Shown here: in pieces, positions 220-11,539 of the stretch
Numbering within the stretch: position 1 is the stretch's first letter
Layout of the letters: the number at the start of each line of letters is the position of its first letter
From: a virus
Strand: one strand, 5' to 3'
Virus genome (UHGV): UHGV-0087143
Length of the DNA: 11,682 nt
Notes under the pieces: model-generated
What the model was told of the DNA's origin: nothing
Database searches by the model: none
What the model saw: the letters and a program-made list of their open reading frames with translations, nothing else
Position numbers and translations under genes: made by a program

Positions 220-885
220 ATGAGCAACACTACCGACATCTTAAGCACGATAGCTGATATCACTATGGCTGGTACTGCTGTATGGGCTGCATTCAAAGCT
301 AATGATTGGTTTAAAACCAAGCGTCTTGAGAGTGCTGAAAACTTCTATAAAGAAGTACACAATCTCCATAAACGTTACTATTCAGCTATCCAATACGTTG
401 AGGATTCAAGAAGAATATTTGATAGTCAGTATGGGTTGCATTCGCCAATATCTGAACCTAAAGACAAGTCATTGCAATGGGGGGTTAAATCGAACTCTTA
501 CAAAATCATCGCTGAACTAGATTATCTGGCATCGTCACTACAAATGATGGATGCAATGGGTAACAAACTTAGCCCTAAATCGGCTTCACTGGTTAATGAT
601 ATGATGGAAGCACATGGACGATTCTGTAATGATGTGATGAACTTCAATGACTCAGTTTGGAAGGTTATAAGGGCAGGTATAACTGAAGAGAACATCCCAC
701 ATACGCGAGGCTATGTGAACGGCGATTACATGACTATCCTTACCAGTATGGATGAACCTGTAAGAATATCTTTTAGGTTAAAAGAAATCAGTTTTAAAGA
801 TTTTTACCTGCATGAAACTACTATGCAGTCAGTAATAACGAGGCTGAAATCGCTTATCGCCAGAACAGGTAAAAACAGGACATAA
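220..885 (+). CDS. Hypothetical protein, 221 aa, with N-terminal hydrophobic segment (ILSTIADITMAGTAVWAAF)
   Basis: Long ORF from ATG 220; weak SD-like AGGG 9 nt upstream; no domain recognised by eye. The 302-520 track ORF is nested in another frame and treated as spurious. Confidence 0.6.
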   Translation: MSNTTDILSTIADITMAGTAVWAAFKANDWFKTKRLESAENFYKEVHNLHKRYYSAIQYVEDSRRIFDSQYGLHSPISEPKDKSLQWGVKSNSYKIIAELDYLASSLQMMDAMGNKLSPKSASLVNDMMEAHGRFCNDVMNFNDSVWKVIRAGITEENIPHTRGYVNGDYMTILTSMDEPVRISFRLKEISFKDFYLHETTMQSVITRLKSLIARTGKNRT

Positions 886-897
886 ACAGGTTAGTAC

Positions 898-1015
898 CTA
901 TGCAATTTAAAGGCATTTTCCCAAGTATCTATGCAATCCTACACAGATTCTATGCAGTATCGATATAGTCTCTTTTTAGCGTAACCTATTGAAATATATA
1001 GAGAATCTATGAAGT
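898..1015. repeat. Cluster of four CTATG(C/A)A(A/G)T motifs (898-906, 929-937, 950-958, 1007-1015) plus a diverged ~22-bp direct repeat (965-986, 1011-1032)
   Basis: Read directly: cCTATGCAAT, tCTATGCAAT, tCTATGCAGT, tCTATGAAGT, all same strand; atagtctctttttagcgtaacc vs gaagtctcttttcagggtaaac. Confidence 0.5.
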
Positions 1016-1496
1016 CTCTTTTCAGGGTAAACTGTATCGTGTTAGTCGTCCCTCTCCAGACACTACATACAGTGCTATATACAGGGATATATAACGATAT
1101 ATAGTTGTTTGACCACTACCAATATTCCCTCAAAGTGACTATCAAGCTGCTTAACAGTTTCCCATGTGAAAGTTAGGAGGTGATGGTTATAGTTCCTTCG
1201 TAGTTCCTCTTAAAAAATCACTTGCAGACACCTTAATCTCTATACAGATTTCATGTAGAACACGATTAGTACGTAGAAGAGTCATTATGTTAAAAACACA
1301 CTGTGTTTATATCAGTACTGATTTATAAGGGTTTTGTGTATTGGGTGATAAGAGGCTATACAGCACCTTGAGAGCATGTCTTCTAAGTCATTGACATATA
1401 AGGTCACAGAAGTTTGTGTCTGTTACAGAGAAAACTGGACAGGACTTCACAGAACTATAAAATGTTACAGCTATTGATAGGTGAAATCTTCTTGAT

Positions 1497-1553
1497 AGAT
1501 GCTATGAAGTGTGATGAAGGCTTCTTGAGGTGGAGTTAACAGATGCTATGAAG
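1497..1553. repeat. Two perfect copies of 13-mer AGATGCTATGAAG, 44 bp apart (1497-1509, 1541-1553)
   Basis: Exact 13-bp direct repeat; shares the CTATGAAG core with the 898-1015 cluster. Confidence 0.6.
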
Positions 1554-2028
1554 AAAGTCAATAGTTGGTTATAGATATTTTAACTGCTTTTGCAAAGGGG
1601 GGTGCTATATCGTGAATCTGGGGTACTTAACAGCCATCAATCATGAGGTAGATTAGGGGTTGGTACAAGCCCAACTAACCGAATCAACTGTGTAGATATT
1701 TTTTAAGATTATCGGTGAAGGGGGAATGCAGAGGGGGTACTATGATTTTTATAAAAATTTTCAGAAGCCAAATAACCATTGTACAGATTTTATACAATCC
1801 TACCAAGCCTCATAGTTGATTCGATTAGGTGATTCAGTAATGAATTACTTCATGAAGCTAATCTCATAGAAAGCTCTGTAGCGAGTTTTAACCCCATTTT
1901 TAGGGGTAGTCTATAGGGATGTACCACCCACCTTAAAATAAAGGGGTAAAATCGCTTAGAATGCGTTACAGAGCGTCTGAGAAGCTATATTCACAGATTT
2001 TACTAAAGTCTCAGACTTCTAAGTAGTC

Positions 2029-2338
2029 TTTTTAACAGGAGGGGTTCCCCTATGGTCACATATCCCCTCTCTCGTTTAGTGGCCCTTGATAGCACCCGAT
2101 TAATAACCTAGAGAGTATGCCTGTAAAACTTCTGTATCAGGTCAACTATAAGAGGTCTGGATATTACCTTGTAAGATTCCTGGTAGTGATTATGCAGAGG
2201 GCTTGATAAGAGTGTTTAACGGGAGGAAGAGATATCTTTTTAACAGGAGGGTTCTTTCTCATGTATCACCCTCTCTTCCCGCTAAGTAAGCTACACAGAC
2301 CTAGAGAACATGCCTTCACAGCATCTATATCAGGTCAG
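2029..2338. repeat. Two diverged ~100-115-bp modules (about 2029-2145 and 2237-2338), each beginning TTTTTAACAGGAGGG
   Basis: Shared blocks in the same order: TTTTTAACAGGAGGG, CCCTCTCT(C)..TTAG, CCTAGAGA(G/A)(T/C)ATGCCT, TCT(G/A)TATCAGGTCA. Related CTCT(C)TCCCG(C/T)T(A/T)AG boxes recur at about 2727-2740 and 2910-2923. Confidence 0.6.
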
Positions 2339-2425
2339 ATTTAGAGGGTTTTGATAGAGTCTGTAAAGGTACTTGACAGGTAACTATGAAGTTGCTAGGA
2401 AGAGCTGTTTAACGGGAGGAAGAGA
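2213..2425. repeat. Perfect 20-bp direct repeat TGTTTAACGGGAGGAAGAGA (2213-2232 and 2406-2425)
   Basis: Exact match read in sequence; a related GTTTAACGGGGG lies at 3239-3250. Confidence 0.8.
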
Positions 2426-2847
2426 ACCATGAAACCGAAGGTAGGTTCTGTCTTAACAGTGAAGTCTTAAGAAATGTCTTGAGAGTTACCTAAACAAGCC
2501 TCTTAAGTAAAAGACAACACTCCAGAAAGAGTGTCTGTTTAACAAACTTCTCAAAAGCTCTTAAAAAGTCTGTTAAGAGAGGGCTATGTGAACATATCAT
2601 ACCATTTTGTCAATGCTTTTGTCTTTGACCTAAATCAATAAAATGTATCGTTTGATATGGTTTTAAGCAAGACGGCTAAAAAAATCTTTTTAGAGGGGCG
2701 CTTCGCTTGGGGTCACTATGTTCTTTCTCTCCCGTTAAGAGGGAAGTTACAGGGACATTTCAAAGCCCTGATAAGGTAAGCCCGATGATAACAGAAACAG
2801 AGGGCAAAACCACTTATCAACACTGTGAACGAATAACGTAAAGGGCT

Positions 2848-2884
2848 GGTTAAGAAGGTCGGTTAAGAAGGTCGGTTAAGAAGG
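2848..2884. repeat. Tandem array, about 2.8 copies of 13-bp unit GGTTAAGAAGGTC
   Basis: Copies at 2848-2860 and 2861-2873, partial copy 2874-2884; related TTAAGA(A/G)GG boxes at about 2464, 2570, 2735 and 2932. Confidence 0.8.
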
Positions 2885-2950
2885 GAGCTTCCCTTTCTTG
2901 GGTGTCGCTCTTCTCCCGCTTAGTGGATAGCTAAGAAGGCTTGAAGTTAT

Positions 2951-3126
2951 CTGTGAAGGTACTGGACAGTCTTATATATTGGGTGATTACAACTCGTTGA
3001 AAAATAAGTATTTTTAGAAATCACTGTTAAGGTTACAGAGTCAACTGTGAAGAGACTTGTCAGTTCTCTATATTGGGTGATTACAACTTATTGAAAAGTA
3101 AGAACTTTTAGAAATTACTGTCAGAG
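2951..3126. repeat. Two copies of a ~82-bp direct repeat (2951-3032 and 3045-3126), period 94 bp
   Basis: Identical 20-mer core TATATTGGGTGATTACAACT at 2975-2994 and 3069-3088 with ~85% identical flanks; partial third copy TATTGGGTGAT at 1339-1349; CTGTRAAGGTACTTGACAG-like heads also at 2361-2379. Confidence 0.8.
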
Positions 3127-3240
3127 AGGTGAATACTTGATAGATACAGCTTTCCGGTTCTGTCAAGCTATTTTTTAATAGATAGCACAAAATGCTAAAG
3201 ATACCCCTATACCATCTCGTACAGGGGGGGTTGAAGGAGT

Positions 3241-3429
3241 TTAACGGGGGTCTGTGTGGTTATCTGTTCTGGTCCTGTCCTTGAGGTCAAACGACCATTC
3301 ACGACCAAACAATCTGAACACGATAAACACTCTGACGATGAAATAGCGAAGTAGTAAGCCTGCAATCAGCCCAACACCTCCACCAGCCCATACATCAGGT
3401 GACCCCAGCTCAGGAGGGAGATTTACCAT
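3241..3429 (-). CDS. Small predicted membrane protein, 62 aa (one hydrophobic helix GGGVGLIAGLLLRYFIVRVFIVF, charged C-terminus)
   Basis: Track ORF on minus strand, divergent from the 3633 gene; weak SD GAAGG upstream; candidate promoter upstream. Could still be a chance ORF. Confidence 0.3.
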   Translation of the reverse strand: MVNLPPELGSPDVWAGGGVGLIAGLLLRYFIVRVFIVFRLFGREWSFDLKDRTRTDNHTDPR

Positions 3430-3514
3430 TCAATGTACCTTCTGTGTGCAATGCAAAAAAACATGTGACCATTCTCGATAGCCACGCTTCATATTTTCCC
3501 TCTCCCATAAACCC

Positions 3515-3544
3515 ATTATACCATAAATGTTAATAAATTGTTAA
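3515..3544 (-). promoter_or_regulatory. Candidate sigma70-type promoter (minus strand): TTAACA, 18-nt spacer, extended -10 TGGTATAAT
   Basis: Minus-strand -10 TATAAT is the complement of 3515-3520, TG of the extended -10 at 3522-3523, -35 TTAACA is the complement of 3539-3544. Confidence 0.4.
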
Positions 3545-3551
3545 AAAATAC

Positions 3552-3580
3552 TTGACATTAGTCTTTGAAACTGCTAGTAT
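3552..3580 (+). promoter_or_regulatory. Candidate sigma70-type promoter (plus strand): TTGACA, 17-nt spacer, TAGTAT
   Basis: TTGACA at 3552-3557 and TAGTAT at 3575-3580 with exact 17-bp spacing, ~50 nt upstream of the 3633 start codon. Confidence 0.5.
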
Positions 3581-3632
3581 TGTATATATAGTTAACAGGA
3601 AATTAACAAACACTAAGAGGGTCAGAATATGA

Positions 3633-4187
3633 ATGCAGGATTCAGAATTTAGAGCGATGCTTCAGGCATCAAGAGAACGCAACAAGCACAACTCCTACGC
3701 TTACACAGACACCCCCACCAGCTACGAAGTACCAGCCTTTTCCAAAACCGAACGTAAAAACATTGAAGCGGTCATTCGTAGCATTACGCCACGAGACAGA
3801 TTTATGCCAGTACGCAAAGAAAAAGAGAATACTTTAAAAACTTTCTTGATGAGCTTTGATTCTTACGAGCAACTACCATCAAAAATTGAAGATGTAATTA
3901 TCGGTACTTGTCGCAGTCTTGGAAGAGATAATTATCACCGGAAGGTTTTTTATTTACTGCGAAGTCTTGATGAGATTAGTTCAAGCACAGTGACGAGCCA
4001 TCTTCAAAGACAAGCAACCAGACTTAGCTACGAATTACCAAGTGATAAATATTGCGCTAACTTAGCCACTATTTGCATGAAAGTTATTGAGACAATTAAT
4101 CATCATGCGGAAGTTGGAAATATCAGCCTTACAACCAGTGAACCAGACTTTGAATTTGACGTATACGCACAAGCAGAGGAATTTTAA
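3633..4187 (+). CDS. Hypothetical protein, 184 aa, first gene of a rightward operon
   Basis: ORF with SD AAGAGG (3615-3620) upstream of ATG 3633; no domain recognised. The antisense track ORF 4062-4442 is treated as spurious. Confidence 0.65.
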   Translation: MQDSEFRAMLQASRERNKHNSYAYTDTPTSYEVPAFSKTERKNIEAVIRSITPRDRFMPVRKEKENTLKTFLMSFDSYEQLPSKIEDVIIGTCRSLGRDNYHRKVFYLLRSLDEISSSTVTSHLQRQATRLSYELPSDKYCANLATICMKVIETINHHAEVGNISLTTSEPDFEFDVYAQAEEF

Positions 4188-5389: not shown

Positions 5390-5454
5390 ATGTTACCAAT
5401 CTGTTAAAAAGCTGTTGACAAATAACCTTAAGCATGACATAATTTTAATTATGG

Positions 5455-5481
5455 GAGAGTAATTCTCTCTTATATTTTTTT
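5455..5481 (+). terminator. Candidate rho-independent terminator for the 3633-5389 operon
   Basis: Stem GAGAG/CTCTC (5455-5459 / 5465-5469), loop TAATT, followed by TATATTTTTTT. Confidence 0.4.
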
Positions 5482-5659
5482 CAATAATCCGATGGATGGA
5501 TGGATATTCTGAGTTGGTGAGGTATGTTCTATACCGAACATTCTGAAAGGTGCAATGCTTTTCGCTACATGGCCTCTTATATAACCTGAGAGGTCATCTC
5601 GAAAAGTACTCTTGTTCATTCGTTTGAATCCTTCAGAAGTTTTAATTTCTTCACCTTAT

Positions 5660-5702
5660 GAATAGCCCTTTATAAGAAATTATCTAGGGCTATTCAGTTT
5701 TT
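5660..5702 (+). terminator. Candidate stem-loop/terminator: 10-bp stem GAATAGCCCT / AGGGCTATTC, 16-nt loop, then AGTTTTT
   Basis: Perfect 10-bp inverted repeat at 5660-5669 and 5686-5695; T-run only on the plus strand. Confidence 0.35.
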
Positions 5703-5776
5703 AAAAAGCATACTTGGCAAACCGCCTTTTAAGCCTCTTCTAAGTTCGAGGATGTCAGGTGTGCTTTTTAAAAACT
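5696..5776. promoter_or_regulatory. Perfect 15-bp inverted repeat pair AGTTTTTAAAAAGCA (5696-5710) / TGCTTTTTAAAAACT (5762-5776), 51 bp apart; operator-like
   Basis: Exact reverse complements; each contains the palindrome TTTTTAAAAA; ends 36 bp upstream of the 5812 start codon. Confidence 0.4.
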
Positions 5777-5811
5777 GAAACATAAATTATCTTAGAAGAG
5801 GAAAGGTATTA

Positions 5812-6516
5812 ATGGCTATCCGTGATGAAAATGAAATGATTATTGAAAGCCGACCAAGTGCACTTGATATTCACGAATTAACTTTGCGTGAATCTTTTGA
5901 TAGAGCTTGGCGGGAATCACACGAAGTAAATAAAGGTCCATATATTCCACCAGAACCACTCGAGATTCCAAGAGTTGAAATTGATTTTTCTATGAACGAA
6001 CAGTGTGAACTTGATTTGAAGTTGAAGCTACAACGCCGATATTTCCAAGCTATTAAAGACTCTCAAGAAGCAATGAGAAGTGTTTACGAGAAAATTCAGT
6101 CCAAGCTTGAAGACGAAATCGACGAAATGGCTATTTTGATGGAGCTTCAAACCAATTCTTATGCTTATTTCTCTCGACTAGACCGTGACGGTTGGGGGTA
6201 TGACCCTGTAGAGATTGGTAAAGTGATTGCAGATTTACCAGAAGGTCAAAGGGTTATTCGTACGGAAAGGGCCATCAGAGCGCCACATCGACTGTCTCTA
6301 ATTGTTGCTGATAAATCACAAGCTGAGCTTGAAGAAATTGCCAAAGAGAAACTGATGAAAGCAAGAGAAAATGAGATTAATTTGCTGAAATCAAGACTGG
6401 CTAAGCTGATTAGTGACCATCAAGCGCTGGCTAAGGAGTACCGTCAAGAGTTGGCACAGATTATCAGCTTCAATGATTTTCTGAGTGTTCCACGAGAATT
6501 TAGCAAGGCTGTTTGA
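5812..6516 (+). CDS. Hypothetical acidic protein, 234 aa, with C-terminal coiled-coil-like region
   Basis: ORF with SD GAGGAAAGG upstream of ATG 5812; no domain recognised. Confidence 0.65.
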   Translation: MAIRDENEMIIESRPSALDIHELTLRESFDRAWRESHEVNKGPYIPPEPLEIPRVEIDFSMNEQCELDLKLKLQRRYFQAIKDSQEAMRSVYEKIQSKLEDEIDEMAILMELQTNSYAYFSRLDRDGWGYDPVEIGKVIADLPEGQRVIRTERAIRAPHRLSLIVADKSQAELEEIAKEKLMKARENEINLLKSRLAKLISDHQALAKEYRQELAQIISFNDFLSVPREFSKAV

Positions 6517-6752: not shown

Positions 6753-6802
6753 AAAAGAATTGGTTGGGTATATGAGATAGGTTCTATCGAATCTATAGTA
6801 CG

Positions 6803-6844
6803 GGGAGAGATTATCGATATTATTCGGTAGTTTCTCCCTTTTTT
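6803..6844 (+). terminator. Candidate terminator: stem GGGAGA/TCTCCC around a 24-nt loop (containing palindrome TATCGATA), followed by TTTTTT
   Basis: GGGAGA 6803-6808, TCTCCC 6833-6838, T6 at 6839-6844; loop unusually large so strength uncertain. Confidence 0.4.
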
Positions 6845-6893
6845 GTATATGAGGATAGTCTTCTATCCGAAGTCTATGAGGTGAAAAATATGA

Positions 6894-8978
6894 ATGAGCA
6901 AATTTACAGTTGATAGTTTTATTGTTGAGCTGGGCTTCAGTGAAAACGTTATTAAGGGATTGCAAAGAGTTGAAAAGGCAGCTTTGCAGTCAGCACAAAG
7001 AATTGAACGTAATTTGAATAGAGCGTTTAAGGTCGATACCAAGCAACTTGACAGCAATTTAACGGCTTCTTTAAAGTCAATGGAAGGGAAAATTAATAAG
7101 ACCTTTGACAAGATTGAGCAGCGTCTTAAAAACACTAGAGCGTTTAAGATTAAAACGGAAATTGAGGATACTTTAAAGCCACTTAGACAGCCAAGACAGC
7201 CACGAATTAGCGGCAACAGAGCAATCACAGCAGCTTATTCAGCGAATATGAGCAAGTTAAAGGGCTTTGACCCTATTTTGCAGAAATACATCAAATCTCA
7301 GTTTTACGGGCTATCTGCTAAAGCTGGGTCAATGGATAATTCAAAATTCAATGAGAAGTTAGCTCAGCTAAATGCTTCAGTCAGAGAAGCAATCACTAAA
7401 GCCAGAGGTCATACATCCACCAGCAAAAACAATCACAGTGAAAATGCTTCAAATGGTTTAGATGTATTAGCTACAAGTGCAATCAAAGCAGGTACAGCCA
7501 TTTATAGTTTTCAGACAGCCTTAGAAGCTTATAGGAAGGTTATGGAAGTTGGTCTGAAAAAAGAAGCATCACAACGAGCGGCACAATTCGTTTTAGGTGA
7601 TGAAGGTGCTAAACGAGCTACAGAATTTGTTAAGAATCTTGCTGATAGTAGTGGTGTAGACCAGATTGAAACATTAAGCAGTTTTGCTAAGTTTTCCGCT
7701 GGTGCTGGTGATATGAATGCAGACCAGAAAGAATCCTTATTTTCTAATGTGATTGGTACATCCCGACTAATGGGTTTAAGCACTGATGAGATTAACGGGA
7801 TTCTAAAAGCTTTCGAGCAGATGGCGAGCAAGGGCAAGATTCAAGCTGAAGAATTACGCGGTCAGTTAGGGGACAGAATGGCAGGTGCTTTTCAGTTATT
7901 TGCCAGAAGTCTTGGGATGACTACAGAAGAATTAGACAAGGCCATGAAGGACGGTAAGGTTCTTTCTAAAGATGTTCTTCCTAAAGTATCCGCTGAAATG
8001 GGAAGGATGATTGATAAAGCTGGTGGATGGGAAAAGATTATTAACTCTACTCAGACGCAGTTAGGCCGCCTTTCTAATTCATGGAATAATAATCTGGCCT
8101 TAATGTTCGACGGTTCACAGGAAGGTTTAACAGACTTTACAAGGTCACTGACTAATTTACTTAATTCACTAGGTGGTCAATCTAAAAATCTTGGTGAACA
8201 TTTTGGCGACTTGATGAAAAGCATGTCAAACGGTGTTGATGATTTAACCACGATTAGCTACCGAGCACAGGGATTCTTTGACAGAGTGACCCTTGCTTAC
8301 AGAGAATTAAATGACACTCAAAAAGCTGTAGCTGATGGTATCGCAAATGGCCTGTTAAGTGCATTAAAGGGGCTTGCTGGTATAGTCGCTGTAAGGTCTG
8401 GGATTGGTGCTGTAGGTGGTATCTGGAACTTAATTAGGGCTATTTCCACGCTTGGAAATGTAGCAAATACAGCAGCAGGAAGAATCAATTCACGTTCTGC
8501 TGGTAGTGTTGAAGGTGGTAAAGGAAAATTATCTGTAGCTGATGCAATTACCAAAGTAATGATTGTCGGTATGGCAACTGATGTGATTAACTCCATTGTT
8601 AAACCACTCTATGAACGCCAGATGAGTAAGTCAGATAATCCAATTGATAAAGTTGTAAGGTCAAAGGTGGAACCCACAGACCAAGCATTGACTGGTGACA
8701 TGAACTCTTTAGCTGCTGTTTTATGGGCTATGGTTCAGGGCAAATCAAAAGATGTTCCACAGTTTTCACCGGAAGCATTAAATAATCTGAAAGGTCGAGT
8801 GGAAACATTCACACAAGATTTAAAGGTTATCAAGCCGTCAGTAAATATTCAGCCTCAGACAATCAATATCACAACTCAGACGGTACTTGATGGAAAGGTT
8901 ATTGATGAAAGAACCACATCGCATATTAATCGTATGCAGGAAGATACCTTGATTAGCTCAGCTTACCCAGAGGAATAA
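6894..8978 (+). CDS. Phage tail tape measure protein-like, 694 aa
   Basis: Internal segment ...GLSTDEINGILKAFEQMASKGKIQAEELRGQLGDRMAGAFQLFARSLGMTTEELDKAMKDGKV... matches the conserved tape-measure core (ELRGQLGERLPGA-type motif); helical N-terminus and Gly/Ala-rich hydrophobic segment (GIANGLLSALKGLAGIVAVRSGIGAVGGIW) typical of tape measure proteins; SD GAGGTG (6878-6883) before ATG 6894. The four antisense track ORFs inside it are treated as spurious. Confidence 0.8.
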   Translation: MSKFTVDSFIVELGFSENVIKGLQRVEKAALQSAQRIERNLNRAFKVDTKQLDSNLTASLKSMEGKINKTFDKIEQRLKNTRAFKIKTEIEDTLKPLRQPRQPRISGNRAITAAYSANMSKLKGFDPILQKYIKSQFYGLSAKAGSMDNSKFNEKLAQLNASVREAITKARGHTSTSKNNHSENASNGLDVLATSAIKAGTAIYSFQTALEAYRKVMEVGLKKEASQRAAQFVLGDEGAKRATEFVKNLADSSGVDQIETLSSFAKFSAGAGDMNADQKESLFSNVIGTSRLMGLSTDEINGILKAFEQMASKGKIQAEELRGQLGDRMAGAFQLFARSLGMTTEELDKAMKDGKVLSKDVLPKVSAEMGRMIDKAGGWEKIINSTQTQLGRLSNSWNNNLALMFDGSQEGLTDFTRSLTNLLNSLGGQSKNLGEHFGDLMKSMSNGVDDLTTISYRAQGFFDRVTLAYRELNDTQKAVADGIANGLLSALKGLAGIVAVRSGIGAVGGIWNLIRAISTLGNVANTAAGRINSRSAGSVEGGKGKLSVADAITKVMIVGMATDVINSIVKPLYERQMSKSDNPIDKVVRSKVEPTDQALTGDMNSLAAVLWAMVQGKSKDVPQFSPEALNNLKGRVETFTQDLKVIKPSVNIQPQTINITTQTVLDGKVIDERTTSHINRMQEDTLISSAYPEE

Positions 8979-9212
8979 ACAATGTTAGAGCTACTAATAT
9001 TTATTGCCACACATGGCAACCTATTAATCTTTATCTAGTATGACGACTCAACTATGAATAGTCGAATGCTACGTGAAATCTCCTGAACAGATATACCCAC
9101 TGAAAAATAGAATTTACGTAGCTCACGCTTAACAGAGAAAATACTTATATATCAAAGGCTTGGTTAAAAATGACTGAAATACACTAAGTCTTTGAAATCA
9201 AAGGAGAATTTA

Positions 9213-9986
9213 ATGATTTACTCTAATCAGATTCGTTACAGTGGCAAAGATGGCATCTATTTCCACTTAAGAGATAATGTAGATGCCTTCTTAACTTTAT
9301 CAGCAACTGAGAACATGGAATTTGATAGCCCTATGCAGGTGACTACACAGAACATGCAATCAGGGCAAACCGTCACAGATAATGTGCAAAGAGCACCCAG
9401 AACAATCACTATTAGTGGTGTCGTTGTAGTTGGCTATGAAGGAAGCTTATTATTAACTCGTCAGGGTCAATTAGTAGAAAACTTCATCGACACCCTTGAA
9501 AGCTGGCGTGACCAGAAGCAGATTATTTCGGTCATCTGTAAAGATGGTATCAAGATTGATGACTCCATTATTACAAGTTTTAAAGCCTCTAAAGATGTTG
9601 GTATTTCAAATGGTCTAAGAATCCAGCTAACTTTTCAGGAAATTAACTTTAAAGCTGTTGTGGGGCAGACTGATATCTCGGCTGCAACTGGAAAAGCCGC
9701 GACTACGAATGATGGTGGTGTGACCAGTAAAAAGAATGCGGGTAACGTGACCACTGAACGCAATAACGCACCTATGCTGATGTGTCAGGAACTGTACAGT
9801 TACTCAGCATCTGAGCTATCTGATGAAGCGCTAAGGGTCCGTAGCAATTGCTCTAAAAATGTCACGGTGAAAGATGGTGTAAGCACCTTCACAGCCTCAG
9901 CTAATGAGCAGGCTTCAAAAGTGCTTAAGTCGGGTAATGCTTTACGGAAGTTTTCTGTGAATCCGAATAAGAAGGGCACTTATTGA
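9213..9986 (+). CDS. Hypothetical protein, 257 aa, downstream of the tape measure gene (possibly tail-associated by position only)
   Basis: Start chosen at ATG 9213 (SD AAGGAG 6 nt upstream) instead of the in-frame track start at 9192, which is a TTG codon; no domain recognised. Confidence 0.65.
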
Positions 9987-10018: not shown

Positions 10019-11539
10019 TTACAGTTGATAAGCGTCAATATCCAGTAGCTCTTTATCAGCAATTTCAAAGATTGGTGACCCATCATTTAGCGGTAACGGG
10101 TTTGTAGGTATGGTGATTTCAGTGTCGTTCTGTAGCGTTACAGTTACCGAATCCTTACCCAATGTAAGCCCTTTTAGATGTTTGGACAAAATCAACTGAC
10201 ACTCGACACGACCCGCTTTAGTTGTCAGGTCAATATCTTTAAGCTGGGGTAGTTCCTTATCAGTGAGTGAAGCCTTACGCCTCATGTTATCAATAGTAGT
10301 CTGTAGTTCTGTGCGCTTCTGGTTAAGTCCCTTCACCTGTGCTTTCAACTCTGTAATGTCATCCATTTCAAGAAGTAGGGCGGTAGCTTTCTTGATTCTG
10401 GCTGTGACAATTTCAACCTCATGCTGTAGAGATGCAATCTTCCCCTCTGCTTCTCCATCATTCCCCACGTCAATCATCCCCAGAAAATTATCAATCATCC
10501 ATCGGTCAAACGGTTTACGCTTCAACGGTGGAACATCACAGCGACCGTCTAAGTGGTTATTGCACCTGTAGACCCCTGCATACTTATTCTTGGTTCCGGT
10601 AGGATGGACACTAGCCCCACACTGACACCGGAATAATCCCTTGAAGATGTTAATCGTTAATGGGTTATCACTTGCAGGTGTGCGGCCTTTACGATTCTTG
10701 TCGAGAATCTCTTGAGCTTTATTGAACGTTGCAGCATCTATAGCGGCTTCGTAGTAGTTCGGTATAGCGGGGCGGTCATTACGCTGTGATGCTGGTAACG
10801 TGCCTATTGTTGTCTCCGACCTTAAGATGGTGCGTACAGAATGGACGCTAAACCCATTAGCATCTTTACGGCGACTAAACGACTTTATACCGTTGCTTTG
10901 AAGGTGACGGGCGATGTTATGCAGACTTTCACCACTTAGCAGCAGCTTGAAAATCAGTCTTACAGTCTCAGCGTGTTCATTGAGTTTGAGAGTATCGGGG
11001 TCAATCCATCCGGGAACCATCTTTGTTAAACGTTGTTTACCAGCAAGGGCAAGTTTTGCACGTTGTTTCCACTTCTCGCTAACACGGAAAGACTTCTGCT
11101 TACTCTCCTGATGCGCTAGGTAGCTTTTAACCCGCTGAATGATTGAGATTCCTAAATCATCGGATAGAGCATCCCTTGTGTAGATTAGCCCATCCTGTAG
11201 AGTGTGAATCTCGATACCATGAGCAATAATGCGATTCATCAAGGCTTCTGTTTCAAGATGCTCTAATCGGCCTATACGGTCGATACTCTCAACTAGCAGA
11301 ATTGTACCTCCTGGAAACTCCCCAGCCTCAATACGGGCTAACATGTCACCAAACTGACCAGTAAGGTGTTTACCTTTGTAACCGGATAGACCCTCATCAC
11401 TGAAAGACGCTACTACTTGAGCATCGCTATTCTTCTTCAACCATTGTTTGAACAGGTCGTTTTGTCGTCTGGTTGAATCAGCACCTTCAGCACCTTGTGT
11501 GGCTGATGAGAATCTCAAGTATGTTATTACGGTTCTCAC
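10019..11539 (-). CDS. int: Large serine recombinase (serine integrase), 506 aa
   Basis: N-terminal resolvase-type catalytic domain with the serine nucleophile motif (YLRFSSATQ) and downstream LLVESIDRIGR; central recombinase region; Cys-rich zinc-ribbon-like segment (CQCGAS...YRCNNHLDGRCD); C-terminal coiled-coil-like region. GTG start with SD GGGAG 9 nt upstream. Antisense track ORFs 10263-10571 and 10914-11111 treated as spurious. Confidence 0.9.
   Translation of the reverse strand: MRTVITYLRFSSATQGAEGADSTRRQNDLFKQWLKKNSDAQVVASFSDEGLSGYKGKHLTGQFGDMLARIEAGEFPGGTILLVESIDRIGRLEHLETEALMNRIIAHGIEIHTLQDGLIYTRDALSDDLGISIIQRVKSYLAHQESKQKSFRVSEKWKQRAKLALAGKQRLTKMVPGWIDPDTLKLNEHAETVRLIFKLLLSGESLHNIARHLQSNGIKSFSRRKDANGFSVHSVRTILRSETTIGTLPASQRNDRPAIPNYYEAAIDAATFNKAQEILDKNRKGRTPASDNPLTINIFKGLFRCQCGASVHPTGTKNKYAGVYRCNNHLDGRCDVPPLKRKPFDRWMIDNFLGMIDVGNDGEAEGKIASLQHEVEIVTARIKKATALLLEMDDITELKAQVKGLNQKRTELQTTIDNMRRKASLTDKELPQLKDIDLTTKAGRVECQLILSKHLKGLTLGKDSVTVTLQNDTEITIPTNPLPLNDGSPIFEIADKELLDIDAYQL

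What the first reader, a model, noticed from the sequence alone, without database searches (positions are those of the whole stretch)
5696..5776. Perfect 15-bp inverted repeat pair, 51 bp apart, just upstream of the 5812 gene
AGTTTTTAAAAAGCA and its exact reverse complement flank a 51-bp spacer and end 36 bp before the start codon of the gene block that leads into the tape measure gene. Two identical palindrome-containing sites at this spacing suggest a looping operator or a transcription-factor site gating the late module.
Basis: seen in the sequence. Interest (0 to 1): 0.5.

Follow-up and report, generated by a model that had tools for sequence, protein, structure and literature searches.

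The report
RNA hairpin that masks a ribosome site
The inverted repeat is real, but it is not a pair of DNA operator sites: it is the 27-bp stem of a conserved RNA hairpin in the leader of a phage-satellite tail operon, and its loop is complementary to the ribosome-binding site of the next gene, and possibly to helper-phage mRNAs.

Summary
The repeat is confirmed and exceeds chance. It is 18 bp perfect (5693-5710/5762-5779); 300 shuffles reached at most 14. It extends to 27 bp if G.U pairs are allowed. The window is a ~11.3-kb satellite-like island of E. coli with tail genes related to Felix O1-type phages. In 55 distinct relatives the stem occurs in six different sequences but stays paired: 93.7% of cells paired, 17 of 27 pairs with compensatory changes, 0/500 shuffles. 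Upper-stem mismatches are all G.U on the + strand. It follows a strong promoter, a ~250-nt non-coding leader and a terminator-like hairpin. In every variant the apical loop carries an anti-Shine-Dalgarno stretch (5734-5744) complementary to the RBS of gene 5812 (5791-5801). Loop and RBS co-vary in three specificity groups. Best reading: an RNA-level translational gate, probably RNase III-processed, not a looping operator. A further lead is that the loops also match helper-phage translation starts. This is significant for type B (scaffold start, 23/26) and type C, but only borderline for this window's type A (tape-measure start, 14 nt). No Rfam family matches.

The parts
5415..5443 (+). Sigma-70 promoter of the leader: TTGACA, 17-nt spacer, CATAAT, with an extended -10 TG
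   Evidence: It matches 11 of 12 consensus positions and is the best promoter-like site in the window. TGTTGACAAATAACCT is conserved in all 61 related loci.
5450..5702 (+). Non-coding leader RNA of about 250 nt. It has a 5' hairpin at 5453-5469, an invariant motif AAGGUGCAAUGCUU at 5547-5560, and a hairpin at 5571-5595.
   Evidence: The region is conserved across relatives and its hairpins show compensatory changes. A 28-nt indel rules out the 49-aa minus-strand ORF at 5470-5619. There is no Rfam match above threshold.
5659..5702 (+). Terminator-like hairpin T2 (GAAUAGCCC...GGGCUAUUC) followed by a U run. The U run is the start of the left arm of the long hairpin.
   Evidence: Found as I3. It is present in every variant as AGCCC...GGGCU plus U4-6. 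L001 shows a compensatory A-U to G-C change. Many relatives carry an extra upstream terminator, T1.
5693..5719 (+). Left (5') arm of long stem S1.
5720..5752 (+). 33-nt apical region of the hairpin. The anti-Shine-Dalgarno element CCUCUUCUAAG lies at 5734-5744, and the extended pairing segment is 5724-5748.
   Evidence: I8 is an 11-nt exact complement of 5791-5801. The duplex with its own RBS is -22.1 kcal/mol, and 0 of 1000 loop shuffles reached that.
5753..5779 (+). Right (3') arm of long stem S1.
5791..5806 (+). RBS region of gene 5812 (CUUAGAAGAGGAAAGG), the target of the loop
5812..6516 (+). First gene of the block: a 234-aa, mostly helical protein of unknown function that is specific to the element
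   Evidence: Homologs are mainly in Escherichia, with a few in Shigella and Citrobacter. There is no phage homolog and no Pfam, PADLOC or NCBIfam family. The AF2 model has pLDDT 56 and consists of long helices.
6802..6845 (+). Strong terminator-like hairpin (16 pairs plus a U run) between the 70-aa gene and the tape measure gene
   Evidence: It implies that expression of the tail genes needs read-through of several terminators.

Best explanation
The repeat is the 27-bp stem (S1) of an RNA hairpin in the 5' leader of the satellite's tail-module operon. A strong constitutive promoter (5415-5443) makes a ~250-nt structured leader that mostly stops at terminator-like hairpin(s) (T2, 5659-5702). 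Transcripts that read through fold S1 straight away. S1 displays a 33-nt loop whose anti-Shine-Dalgarno stretch (5734-5744) pairs with the RBS of gene 5812 (5791-5801). That pairing blocks ribosome entry, so the first gene of the block is locked after transcription as well as by termination. The stem is long and nearly perfect in every variant (22-28 bp). This makes it a likely RNase III substrate, and cleavage would release the loop-bearing hairpin as a small anti-RBS RNA. Shown here: the hairpin, its covariation, its strand, and the loop-RBS co-variation. Inferred: repression of translation, RNase III cleavage, whether pairing occurs in cis (pseudoknot) or after processing in trans, and what releases the lock.
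For: The repeat is beyond chance. Covariation of S1: 93.7% of cells paired, 17 of 27 pairs with double changes, 0 of 500 shuffles, slid controls 35-49%. Strand: 63 G.U against 20 A.C cells overall, and 57 against 0 in the upper stem. The + strand folds more stably in 51 of 55 variants. Context: promoter, leader, terminator, hairpin, RBS and ATG all lie on the + strand and occur in all 55 distinct variants and six stem types. Loop-RBS duplexes are -13 to -22 kcal/mol in all 53 variants where the parse isolated the loop (for the window). Cognate loops beat non-cognate ones in three specificity groups, and loop shuffles reach the observed energy in 0-16 of 1000 trials. Single A-to-G changes in the RBS (L086, L154, L028) give G.U pairs. 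The type A hairpin-plus-RBS module is kept upstream of proteins only 23-27% identical to the window's. Further terminators within the operon fit a multi-lock design.
Against: No expression data exist, so the transcript, its ends, RNase III cleavage and repression are all unproven. Standard folding leaves the SD largely unpaired, because loop-RBS pairing is pseudoknotted with S1. In types C, E and F the linkers are very short: 6-13 nt must span a 22-24-bp stem. A cis pseudoknot would therefore need partial opening of S1. Two of eight representative hairpins (types B and D) fold slightly better as the minus strand. Many type A relatives have a C.A mismatch in the lower stem. An anti-SD-like CCUC motif pairs with any SD to some degree.
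Confidence: 0.68

Rival explanations
1. The hairpin is mainly the precursor of a trans-acting antisense RNA aimed at helper-phage late mRNAs. Its match to its own RBS is a second target, or a mimic that lets helper mRNA titrate the loop and unlock the satellite operon.
For: The type B loop is 23/26 complementary (14+9 bp, -35.7 kcal/mol) to the SD, AUG and first five codons of an in-frame internal start in the prohead protease gene. This holds in both wV8 and Citrobacter phage Mijalis, with 0 of 400 shuffles. That 14-mer occurs in satellites only as the loop itself. The type C loop matches 21/23 at the 5' end of the leader of the gene-46 homolog in Mijalis (0 of 400). The window's type A loop matches 14 nt of the wV8 tape-measure start region (43230-43243). 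That sequence is conserved in 21 of 25 Felixounavirus loci. Type A also pairs 10+10 bp with the gene-46 leader. These duplexes (-24.8 and -24.0 kcal/mol) are at least as strong as the one with its own RBS (-22.1). The PLE sRNA SviR is a precedent.
Against: For the window's own type A loop the phage matches are only borderline genome-wide: 20 of 400 shuffles did as well. CTTAGAAG occurs 10 times per strand in wV8. By permissive duplex energy many other wV8 sites score better. Types D, E and F have no significant match. Loops that carry an anti-SD are biased towards matching translation starts. The helper has not been identified experimentally.
Confidence: 0.3
2. The long stem is only an RNase III processing or stability element that separates the leader RNA from the mRNA. 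The loop-RBS complementarity has no function.
For: The stem is 22-28 bp and nearly perfect in all types. From established knowledge, E. coli RNase III cleaves double-stranded RNA of about 20 bp or more, and phage lambda N and T7 early mRNAs have such sites between leader and cistron.
Against: This does not explain loop-RBS complementarity of 8-13 bp in every variant, which co-varies in three groups and includes matched indels.
Confidence: 0.12
3. The arms are two DNA operator half-sites bound by a satellite or helper protein, as a looping operator.
For: In the window the two arms are identical and each contains the palindrome TTTTTAAAAA. The upstream genes include weak HTH candidates.
Against: The arm sequence is not conserved, but arm complementarity is. 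The palindrome is absent from types B to F. There is a G.U asymmetry between strands. 27 contiguous complementary positions is unlike a protein half-site. The interleaved loop-RBS complementarity has no meaning in DNA.
Confidence: 0.04
4. The hairpin is an intrinsic terminator or attenuator: upper stem plus the UUUUU at 5766-5770.
For: In type A the G+C-richer upper stem (5708-5719/5753-5764) is followed by U5 and preceded by A5. It sits directly after another terminator.
Against: The apical region is 33 nt, far larger than terminator loops. The U run is not conserved in types B to F, for example GUACUUCACGAAAA and GGUGCUCUAUUAAG. The consensus scan did not call it.
Confidence: 0.06

Closest known systems
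P1/P7 immI: the c4 antisense RNA, co-transcribed upstream of its target icd/ant (Rfam C4, RF01695)
   Same: An antisense element is encoded upstream of, and on the same transcript as, the RBS it blocks. Target recognition is by loop nucleotides. Loop and target differ together between related elements, which gives specificity groups. C4 regulation of Ant is cited in PMC8201110; the other details are from my own knowledge.
   Different: There is no sequence or structure match to Rfam C4. c4 is a tRNA-like RNA released by RNase P. Here a single long perfect stem suggests RNase III instead. The gated genes are tail and morphogenesis genes of a satellite, not an antirepressor.
SviR, the trans-acting sRNA of the Vibrio cholerae satellite PLE (bioRxiv 10.1101/2022.04.08.487710)
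   Same: It is a satellite-encoded RNA that pairs at RBSs of both its own transcripts and helper-phage transcripts, and lowers translation of a helper structural protein. The present loops match their own RBS, and for types B and C also helper start regions.
   Different: The host, helper and satellite are different, and no homology is shown. SviR is a separate sRNA gene with two seed regions. Here the element is a hairpin inside the 5' UTR of the operon it would regulate. Helper targeting for the window's type A is unproven.
Leader hairpins processed by RNase III that control translation (lambda N leader, T7 early mRNAs), and loop-to-RBS pseudoknot operators (E. coli rpsO/S15)
   Same: A structured 5' UTR element lies immediately upstream of an RBS. 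The stem is long enough for RNase III. A hairpin loop is complementary to the downstream SD region, as in the rpsO pseudoknot. These comparisons are from my own knowledge.
   Different: Those elements are not homologous to this one. In lambda N the sequestering partner lies outside the hairpin. rpsO needs a protein ligand. Here no ligand or cleavage is known, and the stem is far longer than in known pseudoknot operators.

Membership tests
Any Rfam family, including C4 antisense RNA (RF01695) | A covariance-model match at or above the gathering score | tested here: not met
   cmscan of the whole window at E<=1 gave only two sub-threshold chance hits: rhtB at 29 bits against a threshold of 55, on the T2 hairpin, and a plant miRNA precursor on the minus strand.
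Cis-acting anti-Shine-Dalgarno leader element | A sequence in the 5' UTR complementary to the SD/RBS of the downstream gene and conserved by covariation | tested here: met
   11-nt exact complement in the window. All 53 variants where the loop was isolated give -13 to -22 kcal/mol. Three cognate specificity groups.
Cis-acting anti-Shine-Dalgarno leader element | Demonstrated reduction of translation that depends on the pairing | not testable with these tools
   This needs reporter fusions with disruptive and compensatory mutations.
RNase III substrate | A double-stranded RNA helix of about 20 bp or more | tested here: met
   27 bp in the window. 22-28 bp in all six types, with 93.7% pairing.
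RNase III substrate | Actual cleavage, and absence of antideterminant base pairs at the cleavage site | not testable with these tools
   No cleavage data are available and there is no reliable predictor.
H-type pseudoknot translational operator (rpsO-like) | A hairpin loop pairs with the downstream RBS while the stem stays formed (steric feasibility) | tested here: inconclusive
   In the window the two connecting segments total 19 nt to span a 27-bp stem, which is feasible. In types C, E and F only 6-13 nt span 22-24 bp, which requires partial opening (my own geometric estimate from the sequences).
Intrinsic (rho-independent) terminator | A G+C-rich stem with a short loop followed by a conserved U run | tested here: not met
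   The loop is 33 nt. The U run is present only in type A. The scan did not call it.
DNA operator pair or looping operator | The half-site sequence is conserved among relatives that share the regulator, with no requirement for arm-to-arm complementarity | tested here: not met
   The arms differ completely between types but co-vary to stay complementary. There is strand-asymmetric use of G.U pairs.
Satellite trans-acting sRNA of the SviR kind | Base pairing with helper-phage mRNA start regions beyond chance | tested here: inconclusive
   Significant for type B (0 of 400 shuffles in two phages) and for type C in Mijalis. For the window's type A, 20 of 400 shuffles in wV8 and 3 of 400 in Mijalis did as well.

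The most novel reading that the evidence does not exclude
The hairpin is an RNA sensor-effector of helper infection. Its loop keeps the satellite's own RBS locked. Helper late mRNAs carry equal or longer complementarity: the tape-measure start and late-leader 5' end for type A, and the scaffold internal start for type B. These mRNAs capture the loop. That would unlock the satellite's tail operon and, at the same time, block translation of the helper's competing structural proteins. It would be a second, independently evolved satellite antisense system after PLE SviR, in an apparently undescribed family of E. coli satellites of lytic Felix O1-type phages.
Probability: 0.25. Interest if true: 0.85.

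Novelty: new variant of a known kind. Interest (0 to 1): 0.6.

Why it matters
The leader region of this element matches in 477 of 5,426 complete E. coli genomes. I found no description of a satellite of Felix O1-type phages in the searchable literature. If the hairpin is an anti-RBS gate, it shows how a satellite of a lytic phage keeps borrowed tail genes silent with stacked RNA locks: terminators plus a masked RBS. It also gives a compact, mutable element of about 120 nt for testing how helper infection opens such locks. If the loops also target helper mRNAs, RNA-level sabotage of helper structural genes would be a general satellite strategy rather than a peculiarity of Vibrio PLE.

Tried and rejected
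Rfam at a permissive threshold and a tRNA scan found nothing.

blastn of 5400-5900 against phages found no match. Short-query blastn of the loops against the 2.3-Gb phage set cannot reach significance.

The genome-contig scan with the 234-aa protein family gave only two loci.

The 16-mer promoter pattern in metagenomes returned mostly chance matches and had to be filtered with a second motif.

The AF2 model of the 234-aa protein had low confidence (pLDDT 56), so I ran no fold search. PADLOC and NCBIfam gave nothing.

A genome-wide RNAduplex scan of wV8 was too permissive to rank targets: many sites score -25 to -33 kcal/mol. I replaced it with gapped alignment plus shuffles.

The leader RNA (5450-5702) against the two phages gave only chance-level 12-14-mers.

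I considered and rejected a terminator, an attP/pac/ori DNA hairpin, and a conserved small ORF in the leader. For attP/pac/ori, the sequence is not conserved between types, and the attachment sites lie at the element ends inside yecE. For a small ORF, a 28-nt indel and the non-conserved MNSPL mini-ORF argue against it.

Full report
OBSERVATION. The repeat is larger than reported. It is 18 bp perfect (5693-5710/5762-5779) and extends to 27-nt arms (5693-5719/5753-5779) with three DNA mismatches. All three mismatches are T:G, which are G.U pairs in + strand RNA. It is the longest perfect inverted repeat with a gap of 100 nt or less in the window. 300 dinucleotide-preserving shuffles never exceeded 14 bp. 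As RNA the region folds at -57.3 kcal/mol, z = -6.6.

CONTEXT. The window is essentially one integrated element. In E. coli 2013C-4830 the same ~11.3 kb sits inside yecE (a DUF72 gene). It carries a large serine recombinase (10019-11539, minus strand), a tape measure protein (6894-8978) and a Dit-like baseplate protein (9192-9986). The Dit-like protein is ~76% identical to gp74 of Felixounavirus phages. Window 9237-9746 is 95% identical in DNA to phage wV8. The G+C content is ~39%. This looks like a satellite or defence island tied to lytic Felix O1-type phages, and I found no paper on such an element.

The hairpin lies in a 487-nt intergenic region. From 5' to 3' this region holds:
- the best sigma-70 promoter of the window (5415-5443);
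- a conserved non-coding leader of about 250 nt with its own co-varying hairpins;
- a terminator-like hairpin T2 (5659-5696 plus a U run), whose U run is the beginning of the left arm;
- the long hairpin, an 11-nt linker, the RBS and the ATG at 5812.

Another strong terminator-like hairpin (6802-6839) precedes the tape measure gene.

COMPARATIVE EVIDENCE. The leader region matches in 477 of 5,426 complete E. coli genomes. I collected 61 loci from E. coli, E. albertii, Citrobacter, viral contigs and metagenomes. These gave 55 distinct upstream sequences. All have the same order: T2, long hairpin, short linker, RBS. The stem occurs in six sequence types, A to F; the window is type A.

On a 23-sequence alignment the 27 pairs are 93.7% paired. 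17 pairs show changes on both sides. 0 of 500 column shuffles reach the observed values, and sliding the partner by 1-3 columns drops pairing to 35-49%. Non-Watson-Crick cells are 63 G.U (+ strand) against 20 A.C. In the upper stem the count is 57 G.U against 0 A.C. The + strand hairpin is the more stable in 51 of 55 variants, although types B and D are exceptions when trimmed exactly. The palindrome TTTTTAAAAA exists only in type A.

These results rule out two sequence-specific DNA half-sites. They support a + strand RNA helix.

THE LOOP. The apical region contains CCUCUUCUAAG (5734-5744), the exact complement of CUUAGAAGAGG (5791-5801). That target overlaps the SD of gene 5812 (I8). Every variant has such a match: -13 to -22 kcal/mol with 8-13 contiguous pairs, in all 53 variants where the parse isolated the loop, and -22.1 for the window. 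The sequences differ between types:
- A pairs with CUUAGAAGAGG;
- B and D pair with GAGGUGAA;
- C, E and F pair with CACUUAGAGG or CACACUUAGAAGG.

Cognate pairs are much better than pairs across groups. Loop shuffles reach the observed energy in 0-16 of 1000 trials. Single A-to-G changes in the RBS give G.U pairs, and a 2-3-nt length difference in the RBS is matched in the loop. The type A hairpin-plus-RBS module is retained upstream of proteins only 23-27% identical to the window's, so the module travels as a unit.

MECHANISM. Shown: a conserved + strand hairpin whose loop is kept complementary to the adjacent RBS. The rest is inferred. The loop masks the RBS, so read-through transcripts of the tail block are not translated by default.

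Loop-RBS pairing is interleaved with S1, so ordinary folding leaves the SD free. In the window the connecting segments (8 + 11 nt) could span the stem and form a pseudoknot. In types C, E and F they are too short without partial opening of the stem. This points to pairing after processing, or in trans.

A 22-28-bp near-perfect helix kept in every type is what E. coli RNase III cleaves (established knowledge). Cleavage would release a hairpin of roughly 55-60 nt carrying the anti-RBS loop. This recalls how P1 c4 RNA is cut out of the transcript that it then represses. What opens the lock is unknown. Several terminators in the operon suggest that antitermination on helper infection is part of the answer.

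HELPER LEAD. I scanned the complete wV8 genome and 50 kb of Citrobacter phage Mijalis with the six loops.

The type B loop is 23/26 complementary (14+9 bp, -35.7 kcal/mol) to the SD, AUG and five codons of an in-frame internal start in the prohead protease gene, presumably the scaffold. This holds in both phages, with 0 of 400 shuffles. The 14-mer is otherwise absent from the satellites.

The type C loop matches 21/23 at the 5' end of the leader of the gene-46 homolog in Mijalis (0 of 400).

The window's type A loop matches 14 nt just upstream of the SD of the helper tape measure gene (wV8 43230-43243; 15 nt for subtype A2). That sequence is conserved in 21 of 25 Felixounavirus loci. Type A also pairs 10+10 bp with the gene-46 leader. 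These duplexes (-24.8 and -24.0 kcal/mol) are as strong as the one with its own RBS (-22.1).

For type A this is only borderline genome-wide: 20 of 400 shuffles did as well. The core 8-mer CTTAGAAG is common in wV8. A permissive energy scan finds many better sites. Types D, E and F show nothing.

So a dual own-and-helper targeting role, like PLE SviR, is a real possibility. It is supported for types B and C but not established for this window.

COMPARISON AND NOVELTY. No Rfam family matches. By function the element is closest to three known systems: co-transcribed antisense repressors (P1 c4), RNase III-processed leaders or loop-RBS pseudoknot operators, and the satellite sRNA SviR. It is not a member of any of those families by sequence or structure. 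I rate it a new variant of a known kind (an RNA-level anti-RBS gate) in an apparently undescribed satellite family.

VERDICT. The operator interpretation is replaced by an RNA hairpin with an anti-RBS loop. Confidence is ~0.68 for the RNA gate, ~0.3 that it also or mainly acts on helper mRNAs, and less than 0.05 for a DNA operator.

Noticed in passing
window 885-3633: About 2.7 kb with no ORF longer than 62 aa on either strand. It is conserved at 80-98% identity in 527 E. coli genomes, mostly without an annotated gene. It is full of degenerate direct repeats: 94-nt units at 2945-3121, repeats spaced 193/208 nt at 2024-2425, and 44-46-nt units at 951-1033 and 1492-1553. It may be an origin with iterons or a long non-coding RNA array. 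In NZ_CP027325 the same position holds a Dam-like methyltransferase and an HTH gene instead.
   Followed up: partly
whole window; L001 6988-18263: The window is a ~11.3-kb island integrated in yecE. It has a serine recombinase and only two phage-derived tail genes, from Felix O1-type lytic phages: a tape measure only ~29% identical to the phage protein overall, and a gp74-like gene with a 510-nt stretch 95% identical in DNA to wV8. I found no paper on a satellite of Ounavirinae.
   Followed up: partly
window 5450-5702: The leader behind the strongest promoter looks like an sRNA of about 250 nt ending at T2. It has an invariant motif AAG(G)UGCAAUGCUU (5547-5560) that does not co-vary with the hairpin type, and a single-stranded anti-SD-like stretch AAUUUCUUCACCU (5644-5656) just before the terminator. 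Matches of that stretch to phage start regions were at chance level.
   Followed up: partly
window 6802-6845: A 16-pair terminator-like hairpin with a U run lies between the 70-aa gene and the tape measure gene. The tail genes therefore sit behind at least three terminator-like structures, which suggests control by processive antitermination.
   Followed up: no
L168 (phage wV8) 36798-36822; L207 (Mijalis) 25063-25087: The prohead protease gene of Felix O1-type phages has an in-frame internal ATG (wV8 36808) with a good SD. It would give a 156-aa helical C-terminal protein, probably the scaffold. This start region is the 23/26 complement of the type B satellite loop.
   Followed up: partly
L168 (phage wV8) 23800-23957: The leader of phage gene 46 starts behind a promoter, TGTTGACAAAG, that resembles the satellite's TGTTGACAAAT. 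It folds into a long imperfect hairpin in which CCUCU pairs with an AAGAGG next to the RBS. It shares the motifs CUUAGAAGA, CUUAAAAGG and CCUUUUAAG with the satellite loop. The satellite leader may imitate a helper late leader.
   Followed up: partly
L004 1977-2684, L007 1899-2609, L008 1927-2637: Distant homologs (23-27% identity) of the 234-aa protein at the same position are annotated 'transposase' in RefSeq. Nothing seen here supports that name: there is no Pfam transposase domain in the window protein, and its predicted structure is long helices.
   Followed up: no
window 5470-5619 (minus strand): The 49-aa ORF on the minus strand of the leader is not conserved as a reading frame. Relatives have 28-nt and other indels that are not multiples of three.
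   Followed up: yes
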